NCBI GenBank assembly: GCA_038887515.1
Contig: JAWAKK010000003.1
Span: 1-64,000 of the forward strand
Direction: 5' to 3'
DNA: 64,000 nt
Origin: Candidatus Nezhaarchaeales archaeon
GTDB taxonomy: Archaea > Thermoproteota > Methanomethylicia > Nezhaarchaeales > WYZ-LMO8
Each line of letters opens with the position of its first letter. Positions within the stretch are counted from its first letter, which is position 1. A program made the translations under genes and the position numbers. The notes under the pieces were generated by a model. The model did no database searches. It saw only the letters and a program-made list of their open reading frames with translations, and was not told the origin of the DNA. Positions 9,195-64,000 of this stretch are shown here, piece by piece.

Positions 9195-9235
9195 ACATGT
9201 TTAGGAGATCCTTCCTCACGAAAATAAATATGTAG

Positions 9236-9322
9236 TGGGCCCGCCCGGACTCGAACCGGGGACCACCCGCGCTCTGAGGAGCCACGTCAGGCGGGTATCC
9301 TAACCATCTAGACGACGGGCCC
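9236..9322 (-). tRNA. tRNA-Val(GAC) with 13-nt intron (9272-9284)
   Basis: GGGCCCGTCGTCTAG...CCCGCCT-GAC-G[TGGCTCCTCAGAG]CGCGGG...GTTCGAGTCCGGGCGGGCCCA; BHB helix CTGA/TCAG. Confidence 0.93.
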
Positions 9323-10118: not shown

Positions 10119-11282
10119 GTGATAGGTATGGAGAAATTATTGATGATACCAGGCCCAACGAATGTCCACATAAGGGCCCTTGAGGCGATGTATAGACCTA
10201 TGACAGACCATAGAGGGCCAGAGTTTGAAGATATATATACTGAGCTCTTTGAAAACTTGAAGTACTTCTTCCAAACTAGAAAGTGGGATGTAATACCTTT
10301 TACCGCGTCGGGTACCGGGGCAGTTGAGTGTGTAGTCAGTAATACTATAGCCCCTGGCGACAAAGTGCTGGTTCCATTGTATGGGAACTTCACAAATAGA
10401 ATAAAGGAAATAGTCGAGATTTATGGTGGCAAAACCATAACAATTCAGGTACCTGAGAGAGAGGCAGTTACTGCACAACAGGTAGAGGAAGCTTTAAGGC
10501 GTGAAAAGGTGAAGTTAGTTTTCGTTGTATTTAATGAGACGTCTACAGGCGTAAAGCTCAGAGACTTAAAGGAAATAGCTAAGGTTGCCCACGAACATGG
10601 AGCCCTCATCGCTGTTGATGCCGTTTCAGGCTTGGGCGGCGACGAGCTCCCAGTAGAAGACTGGGAAATAGACCTGTGTGCCTCAGCAAGCCAGAAGTGC
10701 CTTGCAGCCCCTCCGGGCATGAGTATGGTATCTGTCAGCGATAGAGCATGGGAGGTAATAAACTCCATGAAAGCTAGGAGCCACTACTTCGACCTAAAGC
10801 TCTACAAGAAGTTCTTCGTCGAGAGACATCAACCACCATTCACTCCTGCGGTCTCAATATTCTACGCGGTTAACGAGGCCTTAAAGATCCTCAAAGAAGA
10901 AGGTTTAGAAAATAGGATTAGGAGGCATAGAATATGTGCCGAGGCATTCTACGAAGCAGTGAACGCTATAGGGCTACGTTGCTACGCTAAGCCTGAATTT
11001 CGATCAAATACTGTGATAGCCATCGAGGTACCCGCTAACTTAAAGGAGTCCGACATAAGAAGGATTATGAGGGAAAGGTACGGGATATACATAGCCGGGG
11101 GGATGGCCGATCTCAAGGGCAAGATAATCAGGATCGGTAGCATGGGTGTTGTAGATCGACGAATAACTATGATCACCCTCAGCGCTCTTGAGTGTACACT
11201 TAAAGAACTTGGCTGGACCTTCAAGATAGGTTCTGGTATCGAGGCAGCTCTCAGCGTATTCTCTAAGTATTCGAATCTCTAA
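10119..11282 (+). CDS. Class V aminotransferase (alanine-glyoxylate/serine-pyruvate type)
   Basis: LMIPGPT, SGTGA, NETSTG, DAVSG, SQKCL, RIGSMG. Confidence 0.88.
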   Translation: MIGMEKLLMIPGPTNVHIRALEAMYRPMTDHRGPEFEDIYTELFENLKYFFQTRKWDVIPFTASGTGAVECVVSNTIAPGDKVLVPLYGNFTNRIKEIVEIYGGKTITIQVPEREAVTAQQVEEALRREKVKLVFVVFNETSTGVKLRDLKEIAKVAHEHGALIAVDAVSGLGGDELPVEDWEIDLCASASQKCLAAPPGMSMVSVSDRAWEVINSMKARSHYFDLKLYKKFFVERHQPPFTPAVSIFYAVNEALKILKEEGLENRIRRHRICAEAFYEAVNAIGLRCYAKPEFRSNTVIAIEVPANLKESDIRRIMRERYGIYIAGGMADLKGKIIRIGSMGVVDRRITMITLSALECTLKELGWTFKIGSGIEAALSVFSKYSNL

Positions 11283-12416
11283 TTTAACAACGCCTCAGAA
11301 CTTTTTGCTCCATGCTTCATCGCTATATAGCATGCGCCTTCCACGCTAACAGCGCAAGGTCCTATAGGGTTTACAGGTGTACATGCATTATTGAAGAGGG
11401 GGCACTCCCAAGGATATATCAGTCCTCTGATGACGTCGGCACACCTACAACCCTTCGGGAAATACTCTTCAGCCGAAACCTCAACGTCAAATTTTTCTAA
11501 AGCATCGTAGTGCTCGAAGTCCTTCCTAAGTCTAAGTTTGGACATCGGTATAACGCCTATACCCCTCCAATCACCATCGCAAGGCTCAAATACCTCCAAC
11601 ATAATCCTCTTCGCTTTAACGTTGCCCTCTTTCTTAACGCTTCTTGTATACTCTATCTCAACGTCGCACCTGCCCTCTTTTATCTGTTCGAGTATCATGG
11701 CTAAAGAGGCCAAGACGTCCAATGGCTCAAAGCCGCTTATAACCATAGGCTTCCCATATCTTTTTGCTATAGGCTCATAAGGCTCTGAGCCTATAATCGT
11801 CGATACGTGGCCAGGACATATGAAGCCTCCTATAGCTAGATCGGGCCTCTTGAGTAGATGTTCCATGGCTGGTGGTATGAGCCTATGACTTACTATTAAG
11901 CTAAAGTTTTCAGGGACACCTTTAATTAGCTCTATAGCTGTCGTGGGAGCTGTAGTCTCAAAACCTATGGCAAAGTGTACAACTTCAACGTCAAGCTTCT
12001 TGGCTAAGTCTATTGAATCCGATATGCTGTAGACTATCCTGATGTCAGCCCCCTTAGCCTTAGCCTTCATAAGTGACATGCCCCCAACAGCGGGTACTCT
12101 GAACATGTCACCATAGGTTGTAAGTACTACTTTTTTAGAAATGGCAAGGTTTATGGCAGCTTGTATCTCAGTTACGCTAGTGACGCAGACCGGACACCCT
12201 GGACCCGCTCTAACCTCAAGTCCTCTAGGTAGTAGGCTTCTTAGCCCAAATCTCGATATGGTCCATTCATGGTTCGGCCGGGGACTAGCCCCGTGTACCG
12301 CATACATGCATTATTATCAAGCGATCTAGGGCTAGCTCCTTAAAGAGTTCGTGTAGACGCTTTGAAAGAGCCTTTGCGACCTTCTCGTCTCGAAAGGGCT
12401 CAGTTACCACACTCAT
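11279..12416 (-). CDS. hypD: Hydrogenase maturation protein HypD, two exons (12416-12295 and 12272-11279), 371 aa after splicing
   Basis: Exon 1 ends IMHVCG-T, exon 2 begins HEWTI; GPGCPVCVT, GFETTAP, PGHVS, C-terminal Fe-S cysteines. Confidence 0.93.
12273..12294 (-). other. 22-nt BHB pre-mRNA intron in hypD
   Basis: ATG CGGT AC|A CGGGG CTAGT CCCCG GCCG AA|C CAT; removal restores TGC GGT ACC CAT (CGTH) and the reading frame. Confidence 0.85.
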
Positions 12417-12474
12417 AACTTGATGTAAGGTGAAGCATAAAAATTAACTTAACCATTCTTAGATATGGGCTCGT

Positions 12475-13032
12475 ATGGTTAAGAAAGCCCTGGCAATAGG
12501 CGACTTTCACATACCAGAAAGAGCATACTGGATACCCGAAGAGCTGGAGAAGGAAATATTCAAGGAAGCCTATGATGTTGTATTCTGTAGTGGCGATTTA
12601 ACAAGCGAAGACGTGATTTTGTGGCTTAAGAAACTGTCAAGAGAGGTCTACGTAGTTAAGGGCAACATGGACCATTTGAAGCTACCCACTTACTTGGTGG
12701 TAAACGTAGAGGATCTAAGGGTCGGGCTGTATCATGGATCTGGAGTACACCCTAGAGGCGACCTGTTTAAGCTGGCAGTTAAGGCTAAGCAACTAGGGGT
12801 CGAGATCTTAGTGACCGGTCATACCCACTATTCTAAGGTAGCTTTTCTAGATGAATTTGGGGTTGTCATAGTGAACCCTGGCTCAGCTACAGGGGTGTGG
12901 GGTGGCGATGAAAGAGCTTCGCTCATACCTAGCTTTGCAATCATGAGGATAAGCGGTAGGAACTTAGTTGTCGAGGTAAAGGAAATTGCAGAAACTAGAA
13001 TTAAAGTAAACAAATTCGAGTTCCAACTATAG
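12475..13032 (+). CDS. YfcE/Vps29-family metallophosphoesterase
   Basis: GDFHIP, CSGD, VKGNMD, HGS, GHTH, NPGSATG. Confidence 0.88.
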   Translation: MVKKALAIGDFHIPERAYWIPEELEKEIFKEAYDVVFCSGDLTSEDVILWLKKLSREVYVVKGNMDHLKLPTYLVVNVEDLRVGLYHGSGVHPRGDLFKLAVKAKQLGVEILVTGHTHYSKVAFLDEFGVVIVNPGSATGVWGGDERASLIPSFAIMRISGRNLVVEVKEIAETRIKVNKFEFQL

Positions 13033-13260
13033 CTCTATGTCCATGGTCTTAGCTATCTCCTTCCAAAGTTTTAGGGTCTCTTCGGCCTCTTTTTGATCTA
13101 ATACTTGTATGGCATAGCCTGTATGAACTAGAACGTAACTTCCCGGGGTTACCTCTTCATCGAGGAGAGTCAACATGACCTCTCTTCTAACGCCTCCAAA
13201 GTCTACAAGGGCTTTATCCCCTTTAACCGCAACTACCTTGCCTGGTACTGCTAAGCACAT
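13027..13260 (-). CDS. hypC: Hydrogenase chaperone HypC
   Basis: MCLAVPG N-terminus, YVLVHTGYAI. Confidence 0.95.
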   Translation of the reverse strand: MCLAVPGKVVAVKGDKALVDFGGVRREVMLTLLDEEVTPGSYVLVHTGYAIQVLDQKEAEETLKLWKEIAKTMDIEL

Positions 13261-17823: not shown

Positions 17824-17904
17824 ACCTATCCATTACTGTTTAAACGTTTCTGCCTTAAAAAGGGGTTGGTTTTAACTGGAATGACAAAGAAACATTTTGA
17901 ATAG

Positions 17905-18015
17905 CGCCGGGGGCGGGATTCGAACCCGCGTGCCCCCGAGGGGCACCGGCTTTCTAGCCTCAATCTTACATACGAGATCTCGAGGCCGGCGCTTTGACCA
18001 CTCAGCCACCCCGGC
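17905..18015 (-). tRNA. tRNA-Ser(CGA) with 27-nt intron at 37/38
   Basis: GCCGGGGTGGCTGAGTGG...CCGGCCT-CGA-G[intron]AGCCGG, long variable arm, GTTCGAATC. Confidence 0.92.
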
Positions 18016-59512: not shown

Positions 59513-59602
59513 GCCCCGGTAGCTCAGTTAGGCAGAGCGGCGGGCTGTTATCAACGGACAGAGACCCGTAGGTCGGAGGTTCGAGTCCTCCCCGGGGCGC
59601 CA
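59513..59602 (+). tRNA. tRNA-Asn(GTT) with 13-nt intron (59551-59563), CCA encoded
   Basis: GCCCCGGTAGCTCAG...GCGGGCT-GTT-A[TCAACGGACAGAG]ACCCGT; BHB helix CTGT/ACAG. Confidence 0.93.
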
Positions 59603-60049: not shown

Positions 60050-60179
60050 CCCCGGGTAGCTCAGTGGTAGAGCGCTCGGCTGTAGCTTTGTGCGCGGGTC
60101 GAGGGGCGCGTCTCGCCACAATGAAAGCCCGTCGGCCGAGACCGAGTGGTCGCAGGTTCAAATCCTGCCCCGGGGACCA
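60050..60179 (+). tRNA. tRNA-Tyr(GTA) with 55-nt intron (60086-60140), CCA encoded
   Basis: C1-G72 acceptor CCCCGGG/CCCGGGG-ACCA; CTCGGCT-GTA-G[intron]ACCGAG. Confidence 0.9.
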
Positions 60180-63663: not shown

Positions 63664-64000
63664 CTATAGTTCTGAGAGCGTCACCGTGTAATAACATACT
63701 TCCCCTTGAGAATCTATGACAGCTATTATAAGCTCTTTCCTCAGGTTTCTAGCTTCTCTAGCTTTATCAATTATCGTTCTAAGGTCTATAGGTTCTCCTT
63801 CTACTACTCCGAGTACTAGATACTTAGCTCCTTCTCGACCCACTTCAGCCCCCCTTCTATAAAGCCTAAACTCTACATGTTCTTGAGAAAAGCCTAGCTT
63901 AACGGCGTAACCTCTCCTTTTAAGATCAGAATATATGAGGTATTTCAGCCAGAATTTAGGGTCCTTATTAGACATTAAGCTTGAGAAATCCGAAAGACTC
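63664..64000 (-). CDS. endA: tRNA-splicing endonuclease subunit, 5' part outside the window, probably the structural beta type
   Basis: YLIYSDLKRRGY, LIIAVIDSQGEVCYY; catalytic His position appears to read Gly (REGAKY); frame open to the window edge. Confidence 0.8.
   Translation of the reverse strand, partial: SLSDFSSLMSNKDPKFWLKYLIYSDLKRRGYAVKLGFSQEHVEFRLYRRGAEVGREGAKYLVLGVVEGEPIDLRTIIDKAREARNLRKELIIAVIDSQGEVCYYTVTLSEL

What the first reader, a model, noticed from the sequence alone, without database searches (positions are those of the whole stretch)
12264..12416. Candidate archaeal pre-mRNA intron interrupting the CGTH motif of hypD
Seen: the called ORF lacks the HypD N-terminus. An upstream frame from ATG 12416 encodes MSVVTEPFRDEKVAKAL...IIMHVCGT and then hits TAG. 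Removing 22 nt (12294-12273, ACGGGGCTAGTCCCCGGCCGAA) gives TGC GGT ACC CAT GAA = CGTHE and a 371-aa HypD. The junction folds into a canonical BHB: outer helix ATG/CAT, 4-bp central helix CGGT/GCCG, 3-nt bulges AC|A and AA|C cut after the second base exactly at the required boundaries, and inner helix CGGGG/CCCCG. Established: BHB motifs are cut by the tRNA-splicing endonuclease; the well-known archaeal mRNA intron is in cbf5, also near a catalytic motif; the CGxH Cys is needed for HypD to build the Fe(CN)2CO cofactor. Inference: [NiFe]-hydrogenase maturation here depends on mRNA splicing, the unspliced mRNA gives only a 43-aa peptide, and this may be a post-transcriptional switch on H2 metabolism. 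Pipelines would call it a truncated gene or a pseudogene. I know of no described hypD intron but could not search.
Basis: partly seen in the sequence, partly recalled or inferred. Interest (0 to 1): 0.92.

Follow-up and report, generated by a model that had tools for sequence, protein, structure and literature searches.

The report
Spliced mini-intron inside archaeal hypD gene
A 22-base insert that breaks the only hydrogenase-maturation gene hypD of this hot-spring archaeon has the shape cut by the tRNA-splicing enzyme, is kept with matching base-pair changes in many relatives, and is one of at least seven such inserts in this genome's protein genes, a kind of intron so far reported for only one archaeal protein gene.

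Summary
hypD on the minus strand is split into exon 1 (12416-12295) and exon 2 (12272-11279) by 22 nt (12294-12273). The insert carries an in-frame TAG and shifts the frame. Its borders lie after the second base of two 3-nt bulges flanking a 4-bp helix, a canonical bulge-helix-bulge (BHB).

The motif alone is common by chance; the comparative data decide. In an unbiased sample of 130 hypD loci from the phylum, 13 carry an insert at exactly this site, all in the window's class. A pattern scan of metagenomes added 55 more. The 48 distinct junctions are 16-37 nt long. Each one shifts the frame or holds an in-frame stop. The helices are kept by compensatory changes. Both exons are under purifying selection, and hypD is single-copy beside intact hydrogenase, hypC and hypF genes. 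Two EndA paralogues and RtcB are present.

The same genome has like introns in cbf5, uS5, aIF5B, aIF2-gamma and pyrG (two). A hydrogenase-specific switch is therefore unlikely.

No RNA evidence was obtained: 0 reads were laid. My literature searches found only cbf5 and one 5'-UTR case described.

Verdict: a real BHB mRNA intron, very probably spliced by EndA and RtcB; a new member of a known but very rare kind.

The parts
12295..12416 (-). hypD exon 1: ATG 12416, 40 codons plus the first two bases (AC) of the Thr codon of the CGTH motif
   Evidence: tblastn of this peptide finds the matching exon in all 8 other hypD loci of the window's family (62-78% identity). Against 8 relatives pN is 0.11-0.23 and pS 0.52-0.96.
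12273..12294 (-). 22-nt BHB intron. It holds the third base of the 5' bulge, the inner hairpin CGGGG-CUAGU-CCCCG, the 3' strand GCCG of the central helix, and the first two bases of the 3' bulge.
   Evidence: An insert of 16-37 nt sits at the same site in 13 of 130 hypD loci found by homology and in 55 of 63 metagenome pattern hits.
12285..12287 (-). In-frame TAG in the hairpin loop. It ends translation of the unspliced message after 43 residues.
   Evidence: ORF 12285..12416. 39 of 48 distinct junctions have a stop in this frame inside the intron, against 6 and 1 of 48 in the other two frames.
12268..12304 (-). Whole BHB motif. H1 is 12304-12301 with 12271-12268. H2 is 12300-12297 with 12278-12275. 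The 5' bulge is 12296-12294 (cut after 12295). H3 is 12293-12289 with 12283-12279. The 3' bulge is 12274-12272 (cut after 12273).
   Evidence: The same geometry is found at the ARAGORN borders of this genome's own tRNA-Gly, tRNA-Ile and tRNA-Val introns.
11279..12272 (-). hypD exon 2: the last base of the Thr codon, 330 codons and the stop codon. It contains GPGCPVC, GFETT, PGHVS and the C-terminal Cys cluster.
   Evidence: Pfam HypD 6e-129. Translation. pN 0.08-0.16 against pS 0.66-0.84 for 7 relatives.
12438..12447 (-). A/T-rich TATA-like box (TTAATTTTTA) centred about 26-27 nt upstream of the ATG. This suggests a leaderless hypD mRNA.
   Evidence: Read. The spacing rule is recalled knowledge of archaeal promoters, so this is inference only.
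13027..13260 (-). hypC, upstream on the same strand. It is separated from hypD by an opposite-strand metallophosphoesterase gene (12475-13032, +).
   Evidence: Pfam HupF_HypC 5e-28 and Metallophos_2 9e-23.
63667..64000 (-). Second EndA paralogue (189-codon frame, beta-like). It runs past the window's end to G000:C3:64233.
   Evidence: tRNA_int_endo 3e-19 and tRNA_int_endo_N 2.8e-13. The reading as the non-catalytic subunit is by eye against a recalled catalytic triad.

Best explanation
The 22 nt at 12294-12273 are an archaeal bulge-helix-bulge intron inside the coding sequence of the genome's only hypD gene.

In the transcript, the exon-intron borders fold into helix, 3-nt bulge, 4-bp helix, 3-nt bulge, helix. 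The splicing endonuclease is probably an (alpha-beta)2 enzyme made from the two EndA paralogues. It cuts after the second base of each bulge, that is after 12295 and after 12273. RtcB joins the exons.

This recreates the Thr codon of the CGTH motif and a 371-codon HypD. Unspliced messages are translated only to the in-frame TAG in the intron loop, giving 43 residues.

Shown: the structure, its conservation and covariation, the coding constraint on both exons, and the presence of the enzymes.
Inferred: cleavage, ligation, and that splicing is constitutive rather than regulatory.
For: 1. Anatomy. The frame-restoring borders coincide exactly with the canonical cut sites. The same geometry holds at the predicted borders of this genome's tRNA-Gly, tRNA-Ile and tRNA-Val introns.

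2. Unbiased survey. Among 130 hypD loci found by protein homology in the phylum sample, 13 have an insert at exactly this site, and the remaining 117 loci are contiguous. The sample was 30 loci plus 100. All 9 hypD-bearing genomes of the window's family have the insert.

3. Pairing in those 13. H2 pairs in 13/13 at all four positions. H3 pairs 1-4 are 13/13 with changes on both sides, for example GC 8, AU 4, GU 1, and GC 8, CG 4, GU 1.

4. All 48 distinct junctions (67 loci).
- H2 pairs in 48, 48, 48 and 46 of 48. The fourth pair is CG 35, UG 8, GC 3.
- Lengths are 16-37 nt.
- 30 are not multiples of 3. The 18 that are multiples of 3 all carry an in-frame stop. So 48 of 48 break the frame.

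5. The count of structure pairs on 25 sequences.
- 97.2% of cells are paired, against 30-43% when partners are slid.
- 26 cells are changed on both sides, against 9.4 in shuffles (0 of 500 reach it).

6. The spliced Thr codon uses all four third bases: ACT 22, ACA 12, ACC 9, ACG 5.

7. Both exons are under purifying selection.

8. hypD is the only copy. The genome also has hypC, hypF and three [NiFe] large-subunit-like frames.

9. Two EndA paralogues and RtcB are present.

10. Six more introns of the same build sit in essential genes of the same genome. Three were checked in relatives: uS5 in 14 of 30 loci, aIF5B in 16 of 30, cbf5 in 21 of 30. Pfam domains are split across each break.
Against: - There is no RNA evidence. 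Read laying placed 0 reads or contigs from 3 runs, so splicing, the cut sites and a circular intron are unobserved.
- The fold energy is not unusual (z -0.40).
- A lenient BHB occurs 20,366 times in the genome, so the motif by itself proves nothing.
- Three of the four outer-helix pairs never vary because they are coding-constrained, so they are uninformative. The fourth is unpaired in 8 of 48.
- The 55 metagenome examples were found with a pattern that forced the two middle pairs of H2.
- Two of 48 junctions have a mismatch in the fourth H2 pair. The HEAS type (2 of the 48 junctions) also has an extra unpaired A between H3 and H2.
- The assignment of the two EndA paralogues to alpha and beta rests on a recalled catalytic triad read by eye.
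Confidence: 0.9

Rival explanations
1. The intron is spliced as above, and splicing is also used as a conditional switch. Hydrogenase maturation would then be turned on or off after transcription.
For: Without splicing no HypD can be made: there is an in-frame TAG and hypD is single-copy. The intron lies about 123 nt from a probably leaderless 5' end (read), so ribosomes and the endonuclease would compete. No call gives direct support.
Against: Introns of identical build interrupt constitutive genes of the same genome: uS5, aIF5B, aIF2-gamma, cbf5 and pyrG. That argues for a general, not hydrogenase-specific, phenomenon. Within the intron-bearing HypD clade, 7 of 50 rows lack the intron, with at least three losses needed on the tree. 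No ligand- or protein-binding element is evident in 16-37 nt of variable sequence.
Confidence: 0.07
2. The 22 nt stay in the mRNA and the ribosome passes them by programmed recoding. This would be a hop from the Thr codon over the hairpin, as in phage T4 gene 60, or a frameshift.
For: A stop codon and a stable hairpin directly follow the last sense codons. That superficially resembles the gene 60 bypass signal, which I know from recall.
Against: The inserts are 16-37 nt and fall into all three length classes modulo 3. The triplet before the His codon begins with AC, which a Thr tRNA would need to land on, in only 8 of 48 junctions. What is conserved is the 4-bp helix flanked by two 3-nt bulges, which recoding does not need. 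The same structure sits at six other sites with different codons.
Confidence: 0.02
3. hypD here is a decaying pseudogene, or the 22 nt are an assembly or sequencing artefact.
For: The called ORF lacks the N-terminus and the upstream frame ends in a stop. The DNA run that holds the stretch may be the window's own source and laid nothing, so there was no independent read-level check of this very sequence.
Against: Inserts at the same site but of different sequence are in 12 other genome assemblies and 55 metagenome contigs. pN is far below pS in both exons while synonymous sites are near saturation. Exon 1 is open for at least 34 codons upstream of the junction in 66 of 67 loci; the one with 19 lies at a contig end. 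hypD is single-copy beside intact hydrogenase, hypC and hypF genes. Essential single-match genes (uS5, aIF5B, cbf5) are broken the same way.
Confidence: 0.01

Closest known systems
cbf5 pre-mRNA intron of Crenarchaeota (Watanabe et al. 2002, seen only as a reference; Yokobori et al. 2009, PMC2738675, abstract and passages read)
   Same: It is a short BHB-type intron inside a coding sequence. The paper gives 16-44 bp; here the range is 16-37 nt. It disrupts the codon of a functionally critical residue. It is tied to a hetero-oligomeric EndA. It shows lineage-specific gain and loss. Pipelines miscall it as a truncation or frameshift. This genome has that very cbf5 intron too, at the catalytic Asp codon.
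   Different: The host gene (hypD) and site (Thr of CGTH) are different. The motif here is a strict hBHBh' rather than the frequently relaxed motif the paper describes. It is not experimentally confirmed.
Archaeal tRNA introns cut by EndA and joined by RtcB
   Same: The geometry is identical: a 4-bp helix between two 3-nt bulges, cut after the second bulge base. This was verified on this genome's own tRNA-Gly, tRNA-Ile and tRNA-Val genes. The same enzymes are encoded.
   Different: The host is an mRNA, so the exon side of the helices is built from codons (Val-Cys-Gly-Thr and His-Glu) and must satisfy both the protein and the structure. There is no tRNA body to aid recognition.
BHB intron in the 5' UTR of HVO_1309 mRNA, Haloferax volcanii (Schwarz et al. 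2020, PMC7714728, passages read)
   Same: It is an mRNA substrate of the splicing endonuclease outside tRNA and rRNA.
   Different: It lies in the untranslated leader and does not interrupt a reading frame. The host is a euryarchaeon with a different EndA type.
IRE1-dependent unconventional splicing of HAC1/XBP1 mRNA with RtcB ligation (recalled; RtcB-XBP1 link seen in the abstract listing of PMC8718801)
   Same: A very small intron is removed from a mature-looking mRNA by a protein endonuclease at paired stem-loops. The exons are joined by RtcB. Removal changes the reading frame and hence the protein made.
   Different: The endonuclease and cleavage motif are different. It is eukaryotic and is a proven regulatory switch, which is not indicated here.

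Membership tests
Archaeal BHB (bulge-helix-bulge) intron | Two 3-nt bulges on opposite strands separated by a 4-bp helix and flanked by helices (hBHBh') | tested here: met
   for the window. H2 is paired in 13/13 of the unbiased set and in 46-48 of 48 junctions overall. 97.2% of cells are paired against 30-43% when slid.
Archaeal BHB (bulge-helix-bulge) intron | Cuts after the second base of each bulge give a functional mature RNA | tested here: met
   At sequence level only. These borders, and no others within the bulges, restore the Thr codon and the HypD frame. The same rule restores the frame at six other introns of the genome. Actual cleavage was not observed.
Archaeal BHB (bulge-helix-bulge) intron | Base pairs maintained by compensatory change in relatives | tested here: met
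   Five of 13 pairs have changes on both sides. 26 such cells are seen against 9.4 expected, and 0 of 500 shuffles reach that. The fourth H2 pair is CG, UG or GC.
Archaeal BHB (bulge-helix-bulge) intron | The genome encodes the splicing endonuclease and the RtcB ligase | tested here: met
   There are two tRNA_int_endo matches (5.8e-31 and 9.6e-20), each with N- and C-terminal EndA domains. RtcB matches at 5.2e-181.
Archaeal BHB (bulge-helix-bulge) intron | Spliced RNA, and a linear or circular intron, observed | not testable with these tools
   Read laying placed 0 reads from two metatranscriptomes, with about 3 in 100 of each read, and 0 contigs from the DNA run.
HypD ([NiFe]-hydrogenase maturation protein) | Pfam HypD profile over its full length, including the N-terminal CGxH motif | tested here: met
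   Exon 2 covers profile positions 29-350 of 351. Exon 1 aligns with the N-termini of uninterrupted relatives and ends in ...MHVCG. The joined protein itself was not submitted to a tool because joined sequences may not be typed.
HypD ([NiFe]-hydrogenase maturation protein) | Conserved GPGCPVC, GFETT and PGHVS motifs and C-terminal Cys residues for the Fe-S cluster (motif list recalled) | tested here: met
   All were read in the exon 2 translation.
Programmed translational bypass (T4 gene 60 type) | Matching take-off and landing codons, with a fixed gap | tested here: not met
   The landing triplet begins with AC in 8 of 48 junctions. The gap varies from 16 to 37 nt.

The most novel reading that the evidence does not exclude
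In this order of hot-spring archaea, splicing of messenger RNAs by the tRNA endonuclease and RtcB is an obligatory, genome-wide layer of gene expression, not a one-gene curiosity. (Relatives' records are titled Candidatus Nezhaarchaeota or Nezhaarchaeales; the neighbouring families carry the names Methanomethylicia and Culexmicrobium.)

- Ribosome function (uS5), translation initiation (aIF5B, aIF2-gamma), rRNA and tRNA pseudouridylation (Cbf5), CTP synthesis (PyrG, two introns) and hydrogenase maturation (HypD) all depend on it.
- The introns sit in the most conserved motifs.
- They are selected to carry an in-frame stop or a frameshift as a fail-safe.
- They spread to new sites that can pair with the 3' arm of the intron. 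The two pyrG introns suggest this: both follow ACCCAU and share their helix and end sequences.
Probability: 0.35. Interest if true: 0.9.

Novelty: new member of a known kind. Interest (0 to 1): 0.8.

Why it matters
The papers I could read describe BHB introns in archaeal protein-coding sequence for one gene only, cbf5. PMC7714728 (2020) says so in a passage I read, and it adds one 5'-UTR case.

- A second host gene would show that the tRNA-splicing machinery serves mRNAs more widely. That holds all the more for a set of at least six, including a ribosomal protein and two initiation factors, conserved across families.
- It bears on how protein-endonuclease splicing of mRNA arose. The eukaryotic IRE1/RtcB pathway is the obvious analogue.
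- It bears on how introns settle in the most conserved motifs.
- It has a practical side for annotation. Pipelines will call these genes truncated, frameshifted or pseudogenes. They will then wrongly score such genomes as lacking HypD, uS5 or aIF5B, which distorts metabolic reconstructions and completeness estimates.
- The strong excess of in-frame stops inside the introns is a testable hint of a fail-safe against translating unspliced messages.

Tried and rejected
RNA and DNA reads. The look-up of sequencing runs listed one DNA run, which may be the window's own source, and two metatranscriptomes of the same study. No RNA holder was listed. Read laying placed 0 reads or contigs in all three, with about 3 in 100 of each RNA run read.

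Loose pattern over the phylum. TGYGGNAC...CNNNNCAYGA matched about as often as its reversed control, so it was useless. It was replaced by fetching the junction of 100 hypD loci directly.

Genome-wide BHB scans.
- The lenient scan gave 20,366 motifs and 645 ORF-joining candidates, far too many.
- A strict filter gave 7. hypD, uS5 and aIF5B were confirmed. C1:727287-727265, C1:196208-196186, C5:4414-4435 and C7:641-663 gained no support.
- A second scan gave 28. cbf5, aIF2-gamma and pyrG intron 2 were confirmed as new, and hypD, uS5 and aIF5B were found again.
- By reading the translations I rejected C2:211843 (ThiC coding sequence), C1:748763 (a gene start), C1:264255 (HisF coding sequence) and C1:216301 (a read-through frame). 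The other 18 were not followed.
- These scans are not exhaustive. pyrG intron 1 was found only by eye.

Alignment and parsing problems.
- MAFFT of 29 junctions (A1) misaligned the 16-24-nt types. Only 25 sequences (A2) went to the count of structure pairs. The counts over all 48 are from my own script, anchored at the splice sites.
- The script missed L067, which one search shows to be a hypD with a 23-nt insert. I did not trace why.
- The L009 exon 2 figures (pN 0.547) come from an indel in an ungapped comparison and were ignored.
- dN/dS could not be computed for 4 of 8 pairs because synonymous sites are saturated. I give pN and pS instead.

tRNA control. Only 5 of 16 ARAGORN-predicted tRNA introns of 11 nt or more showed the strict geometry near the predicted borders. 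The other 11 may be relaxed motifs or wrong ARAGORN borders, and this was not resolved.

Tree bias. The metagenome rows in the tree were chosen by the intron pattern, so intron-less metagenome relatives are missing. Of 67 intron-bearing loci, 43 distinct rows of at least 250 residues were used, plus all 17 intron-less loci. The root is at the midpoint only.

Rejected readings: pseudogene, artefact and translational bypass (see the rival explanations). A group I/II intron or an intein is also rejected, because the insert is far too short and shifts the frame.

Literature.
- Searches found no paper with a BHB intron in hypD, uS5, aIF5B, aIF2-gamma or pyrG, and none linking Nezhaarchaeota, Verstraetearchaeota or Methanomethylicia with such introns among those listed.
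- The library lacks most subscription journals, and supplements were closed.
- References 39 and 50 of PMC2738675 are said there to predict introns in other protein genes. I did not see them.
Full report
WHAT IS IN THE SEQUENCE.

On the minus strand, the ATG at 12416 opens a frame that reads MSVVTEPFRDEK...LIIMHVCGT. It stops at TAG 12287-12285 after 43 residues.

The long ORF that a gene caller would take is 11279..12307 (342 aa). It matches Pfam HypD at E 6e-129, but only from profile position 29 of 351. The 43-aa frame matches no family.

Taking out 12294-12273 (22 nt) joins AC to C. That gives a Thr codon, the motif C-G-T-H-E, and 371 codons in all.

Around the insert the RNA folds as follows:
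- a 4-bp helix CGGU/GCCG (12300-12297 with 12278-12275);
- a 3-nt bulge A-C-A on the 5' side and A-A-C on the 3' side;
- an inner hairpin CGGGG-CUAGU-CCCCG;
- an outer helix.

For the outer helix, the minimum-energy fold uses CAUG 12308-12305. The canonical register UAUG 12304-12301 pairs with the same CAUG 12271-12268.

The frame-restoring borders fall after the second base of each bulge. I checked this geometry, which I first recalled, against the organism's own genes. At the ARAGORN borders of tRNA-Gly(UCC), tRNA-Ile(GAU) and tRNA-Val(GAC), the four bases 32-35 form the central helix. The cut lies after the second base of a 3-nt bulge, and the anticodon stem is the outer helix. That was 3 hits with zero shift and 5 of 16 overall.

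IS IT MORE THAN CHANCE?

Not by itself.
- The energy is ordinary: z -0.40, and 63 of 200 shuffles fold as well.
- A lenient version of the motif occurs 20,366 times on the two strands of the 1.29-Mb genome.

The case rests on three things: the coincidence with the reading frame, comparison with relatives, and the parallel cases in the same genome.

COMPARISON, UNBIASED SET.

A protein search with the hypD ORF in 41 related genomes found it in 35 and returned 30 loci. tblastn with the two exon peptides and direct reading of the junctions show an insert in 13 of the 30. It lies between the second and third base of the same Thr codon.

The 13 comprise:
- all 9 hypD-bearing genomes of the window's family (f1);
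- two of family f7;
- one of f8;
- one of f4.

The other 17 read ...CGT|HE... without a break.

A search over 401 genomes of the phylum found hypD in 265. I fetched the junction of 100 further loci taken from the listed top 150. All 100 are uninterrupted.

So 13 of 130 loci examined carry the insert, all in the window's class.

A strict DNA pattern over one genome per species of bacteria and archaea gave 20 hits. Eleven are these same hypD inserts. Their records are titled Candidatus Nezhaarchaeota or Nezhaarchaeales, Methanomethylicota or Methanomethylicia, Candidatus Culexmicrobium, 'Thermoprotei archaeon' and 'Nitrososphaerota archaeon'. Nine are chance hits elsewhere.

COMPARISON, WIDER SET.

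A looser pattern over metagenome contigs gave 63 hits. By their flanking translations:
- 55 are hypD with an insert at this site;
- 3 look like uninterrupted hypD;
- 5 are unrelated.

They add at least five further intron types, of 16-17, 24, 28, 32-33 and 37 nt, in HypD lineages with HEQ, HEH and HEA after the junction.

This set is biased: the pattern forced the two middle pairs of the central helix.

STRUCTURE COUNTS.

I anchored positions at the splice sites, which needs no alignment.

The 13 unbiased junctions pair as follows:
- 13/13 at all four central-helix positions;
- 13/13 at inner-helix pairs 1-4, with both-sided changes: pair 2 is GC 8, AU 4, GU 1; pair 4 is GC 8, CG 4, GU 1.

Over all 48 distinct junctions (67 loci):
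- The central helix pairs in 48, 48, 48 and 46 of 48.
- Its fourth pair involves the wobble base of the Gly codon. It is C-G 35, U-G 8, G-C 3, so the intron side follows the codon.
- Inner-helix pairs 1-5 are formed in 46, 46, 34, 45 and 42 of 48.
- Three of the four outer-helix pairs never vary because they are fixed by the Cys, Val, His and Glu codons. They therefore say nothing. The variable pair (Val wobble with His wobble) is formed in 40 of 48.

The tool count on a clean alignment of 25 sequences of the two commonest types (A2) gives:
- 97.2% of cells paired, against 30-43% when partners are slid by 1-3 columns;
- 26 cells changed on both sides against 9.4 in shuffles (0 of 500 reach it);
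- a covariation score of 0.257 against 0.127 (0 of 500).

THE INSERTS CANNOT BE TRANSLATED.

Lengths run from 16 to 37 nt. Thirty of 48 are not multiples of three. The 18 that are multiples of three all hold an in-frame stop. So 48 of 48 break the frame. L067, missed by the script, is 23 nt and fits.

A stop lies inside the intron in the exon 1 frame in 39 of 48. In the other two frames the figures are 6 and 1 of 48. The stop itself varies: TGA 22, TAA 13, TAG 4.

After splicing, the Thr codon is ACT 22, ACA 12, ACC 9, ACG 5. That is what a synonymous site should show.

THE GENE IS ALIVE.
- Against eight relatives of the family, exon 1 has pN 0.11-0.23 and pS 0.52-0.96.
- Exon 2 has pN 0.08-0.16 and pS 0.66-0.84 in seven of them. 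The eighth comparison is spoiled by an indel.
- hypD is the only match in the genome, which is 94% complete.
- hypC lies just upstream.
- hypF and three [NiFe]-hydrogenase large-subunit-like frames are present.
- MCR alpha was not found.

THE MACHINERY.

The genome has two EndA paralogues, each with both EndA domains, and RtcB.

By eye, the 195-codon paralogue keeps residues at the places of the catalytic Tyr/His/Lys that I recall from the M. jannaschii enzyme. The 189-codon one lies at the end of this window and lacks the His. That would fit the (alpha-beta)2 enzyme that the cbf5 literature ties to mRNA introns (PMC2738675, passages). This assignment is inference.

ARAGORN with introns allowed predicts introns in 18 of 46 tRNA genes.

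HISTORY.

I built a maximum-likelihood tree of 60 HypD exon-2 proteins: 43 intron-bearing rows and 17 without.
- One clade of 50 rows (support 100/99) holds every intron-bearing row and 7 intron-less ones.
- The 10 rows of family f5 fall outside this clade, and all are intron-less.
- Four changes of state are needed. One gain and three precise losses would do.
- The root is only the midpoint, and the metagenome rows were picked by the intron.

Synonymous saturation within the family shows that the intron is old.

THE SAME GENOME HAS MORE OF THEM.

Looking for cbf5, I found its TruB domain broken by an in-frame TAA. A 21-nt BHB insert splits the Asp codon of GTLDP. [quoted passage not shown]

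Scans for strict BHB motifs that join open frames, and reading of the hits, gave these further inserts:
- uS5: 30 nt, G000:C1:3267-3238;
- aIF5B: 29 nt, C2:21722-21750, just before the TQH of switch I;
- aIF2-gamma: 32 nt, C2:24144-24175, just after DCPGHE;
- CTP synthase: two inserts, 20 nt at C2:221611-221630 and 32 nt at C2:221664-221695, each splitting a Tyr codon.

In each case one Pfam domain continues across the break:
- Ribosomal_S5 restarts at profile position 17;
- GTP_EFTU covers 4-31 then 61-183 in aIF5B;
- GTP_EFTU covers 4-80 then 85-187 in aIF2-gamma;
- CTP_synth_N covers 1-40 then 54-265;
- TruB_N restarts at 17.

All seven introns share these features:
- a 4-bp central helix;
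- a 5' bulge NN|A;
- a 3' bulge AN|N;
- an in-frame stop.

In relatives, the intron is present at the identical site, with varying length and compensatory changes, as follows:
- uS5 in 14 of 30 loci. The central helix changes from ACGG/CCGU to ACAG/CUGU in two of them.
- aIF5B in 16 of 30 loci.
- cbf5 in 21 of 30 loci.

Each of these three genes has a single match in the window's genome. An organism cannot do without uS5 or aIF5B. So removal of such inserts must work in these cells. This is the strongest indirect argument that the hypD insert is removed too.

WHAT IT DOES NOT SHOW.

No transcript was seen. The cut sites, the ligation, the fate of the intron and the efficiency of splicing are all inferred.

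- the intron type is shared with constitutive genes;
- relatives have lost it from hypD.

A TATA-like box is centred 26-27 nt upstream of the ATG. It suggests a leaderless message in which the intron starts about 123 nt from the 5' end. Ribosomes could then reach it before the endonuclease does. The conserved in-frame stop would release them. This is a speculation of mine, not a result.

WHAT IS KNOWN.
- PMC2738675 (2009; abstract and passages) says that no archaeal pre-mRNA splicing other than cbf5 was confirmed, though introns in other protein genes had been predicted. I did not see its references 39 and 50.
- PMC7714728 (2020; passages) adds a BHB intron in the 5' UTR of one Haloferax mRNA. 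It states that only the cbf5 case had been reported besides.
- A 2026 review of non-canonical splicing (PMC13149111; passages) mentions archaeal BHB only for tRNA.
- Six full-text searches found nothing on BHB introns in hypD, uS5, aIF5B, aIF2-gamma or pyrG. They also found nothing linking the Nezhaarchaeota or Methanomethylicia lineages with such introns.
- The library is incomplete and supplements were closed, so a prior report cannot be excluded.

VERDICT.

This is a BHB intron in the coding sequence of hypD, removed by EndA and RtcB. It is conserved for a long time in the Nezhaarchaeales-like family and scattered in neighbouring families.

It is a new member of a known but nearly empty class. 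It comes with at least six siblings in the same genome, which is the more important finding.

Noticed in passing
G000:C2:333915-333935 (+); L118 about 1547-1567: cbf5 carries a 21-nt BHB intron with an in-frame TAA that splits the catalytic Asp codon (GA|T) of GTLDP. The same site is interrupted in 21 of 30 relatives' loci and uninterrupted in 9 loci of family f5. This extends the known crenarchaeal cbf5 intron to this class.
   Followed up: yes
G000:C1:3267-3238 (-); L120: The ribosomal protein uS5 gene is split by a 30-nt BHB intron (10-bp inner helix, in-frame TAG) between ...VQRQTD and AGESSRFK.... The site is interrupted in 14 of 30 relatives' loci (families f1 and f3), with covariation that includes the central helix.
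   Followed up: yes
G000:C2:21722-21750 (+); L121: The translation initiation factor aIF5B gene is split by a 29-nt BHB intron between ...REVGAM and TQHIGAS... (switch I of the GTPase). The site is interrupted in 16 of 30 relatives' loci (f1, f2, f3 and one f5 genome).
   Followed up: yes
G000:C2:24144-24175 (+); L315: The aIF2-gamma gene is split by a 32-nt BHB intron with an in-frame TAA directly after the DCPGHE (G3) motif. Pfam GTP_EFTU continues across the break. Relatives were not examined.
   Followed up: partly
G000:C2:221611-221630 and 221664-221695 (+); L316: The CTP synthase (pyrG) gene has two BHB introns 33 nt apart, each splitting a Tyr codon. Both follow ACCCAU, share the central helix ACCC/GGGU, begin AGGC and end GCCGGGUA(A/U). 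They look like copies of one intron at two like target sites. Relatives were not examined.
   Followed up: partly
All 48 distinct hypD junctions (loci L002-L114) and the 7 introns of G000: There is a strong excess of stop codons in the upstream reading frame inside the introns. For hypD it is 39 of 48, against 6 and 1 of 48 in the other frames. All 7 introns of this genome have one. This may be a fail-safe against translating unspliced mRNA. It was not tested against base composition or phylogeny.
   Followed up: partly
window 63667-64000 (-), running on to G000:C3:64233: A second EndA paralogue (189-codon frame) lies at the window's end. The other one (195-codon frame) is at G000:C1:132415-132999. 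By eye, only the latter keeps the catalytic His.
   Followed up: partly
window 9235-9322, 17904-18015, 59513-59602, 60050-60179, 81-194: tRNA calls differ between the plain ARAGORN tool and ARAGORN with introns allowed. For 9235-9322, one search gives tRNA-Ser(tga), while one search gives tRNA-Val(gac) with a 13-nt intron whose BHB fits. Several window tRNA genes appear to hold introns. 59513-59602 was unassignable.
   Followed up: partly
window 12475-13032 (+), between hypC (13027-13260, -) and hypD: A metallophosphoesterase gene on the opposite strand separates hypC from hypD, so the two hyp genes are not one operon here. A class-V aminotransferase gene (10119-11282, +) converges on the hypD stop and overlaps it by 4 nt.
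   Followed up: no
G000 whole genome: No MCR alpha subunit (PF02249) was found in this 94%-complete genome, although some relatives' records carry names of lineages described as methane or alkane metabolisers. Three [NiFe] large-subunit-like frames and hypF are present.
   Followed up: no
G000:C5:4414-4435 (+); L123: A glycosyltransferase gene starts in mid-domain (Glyco_transf_4 profile 126-169 at its first residues), directly downstream of a strict BHB-like 22-nt element. The upstream frame does not look like the missing part. This is unexplained.
   Followed up: partly
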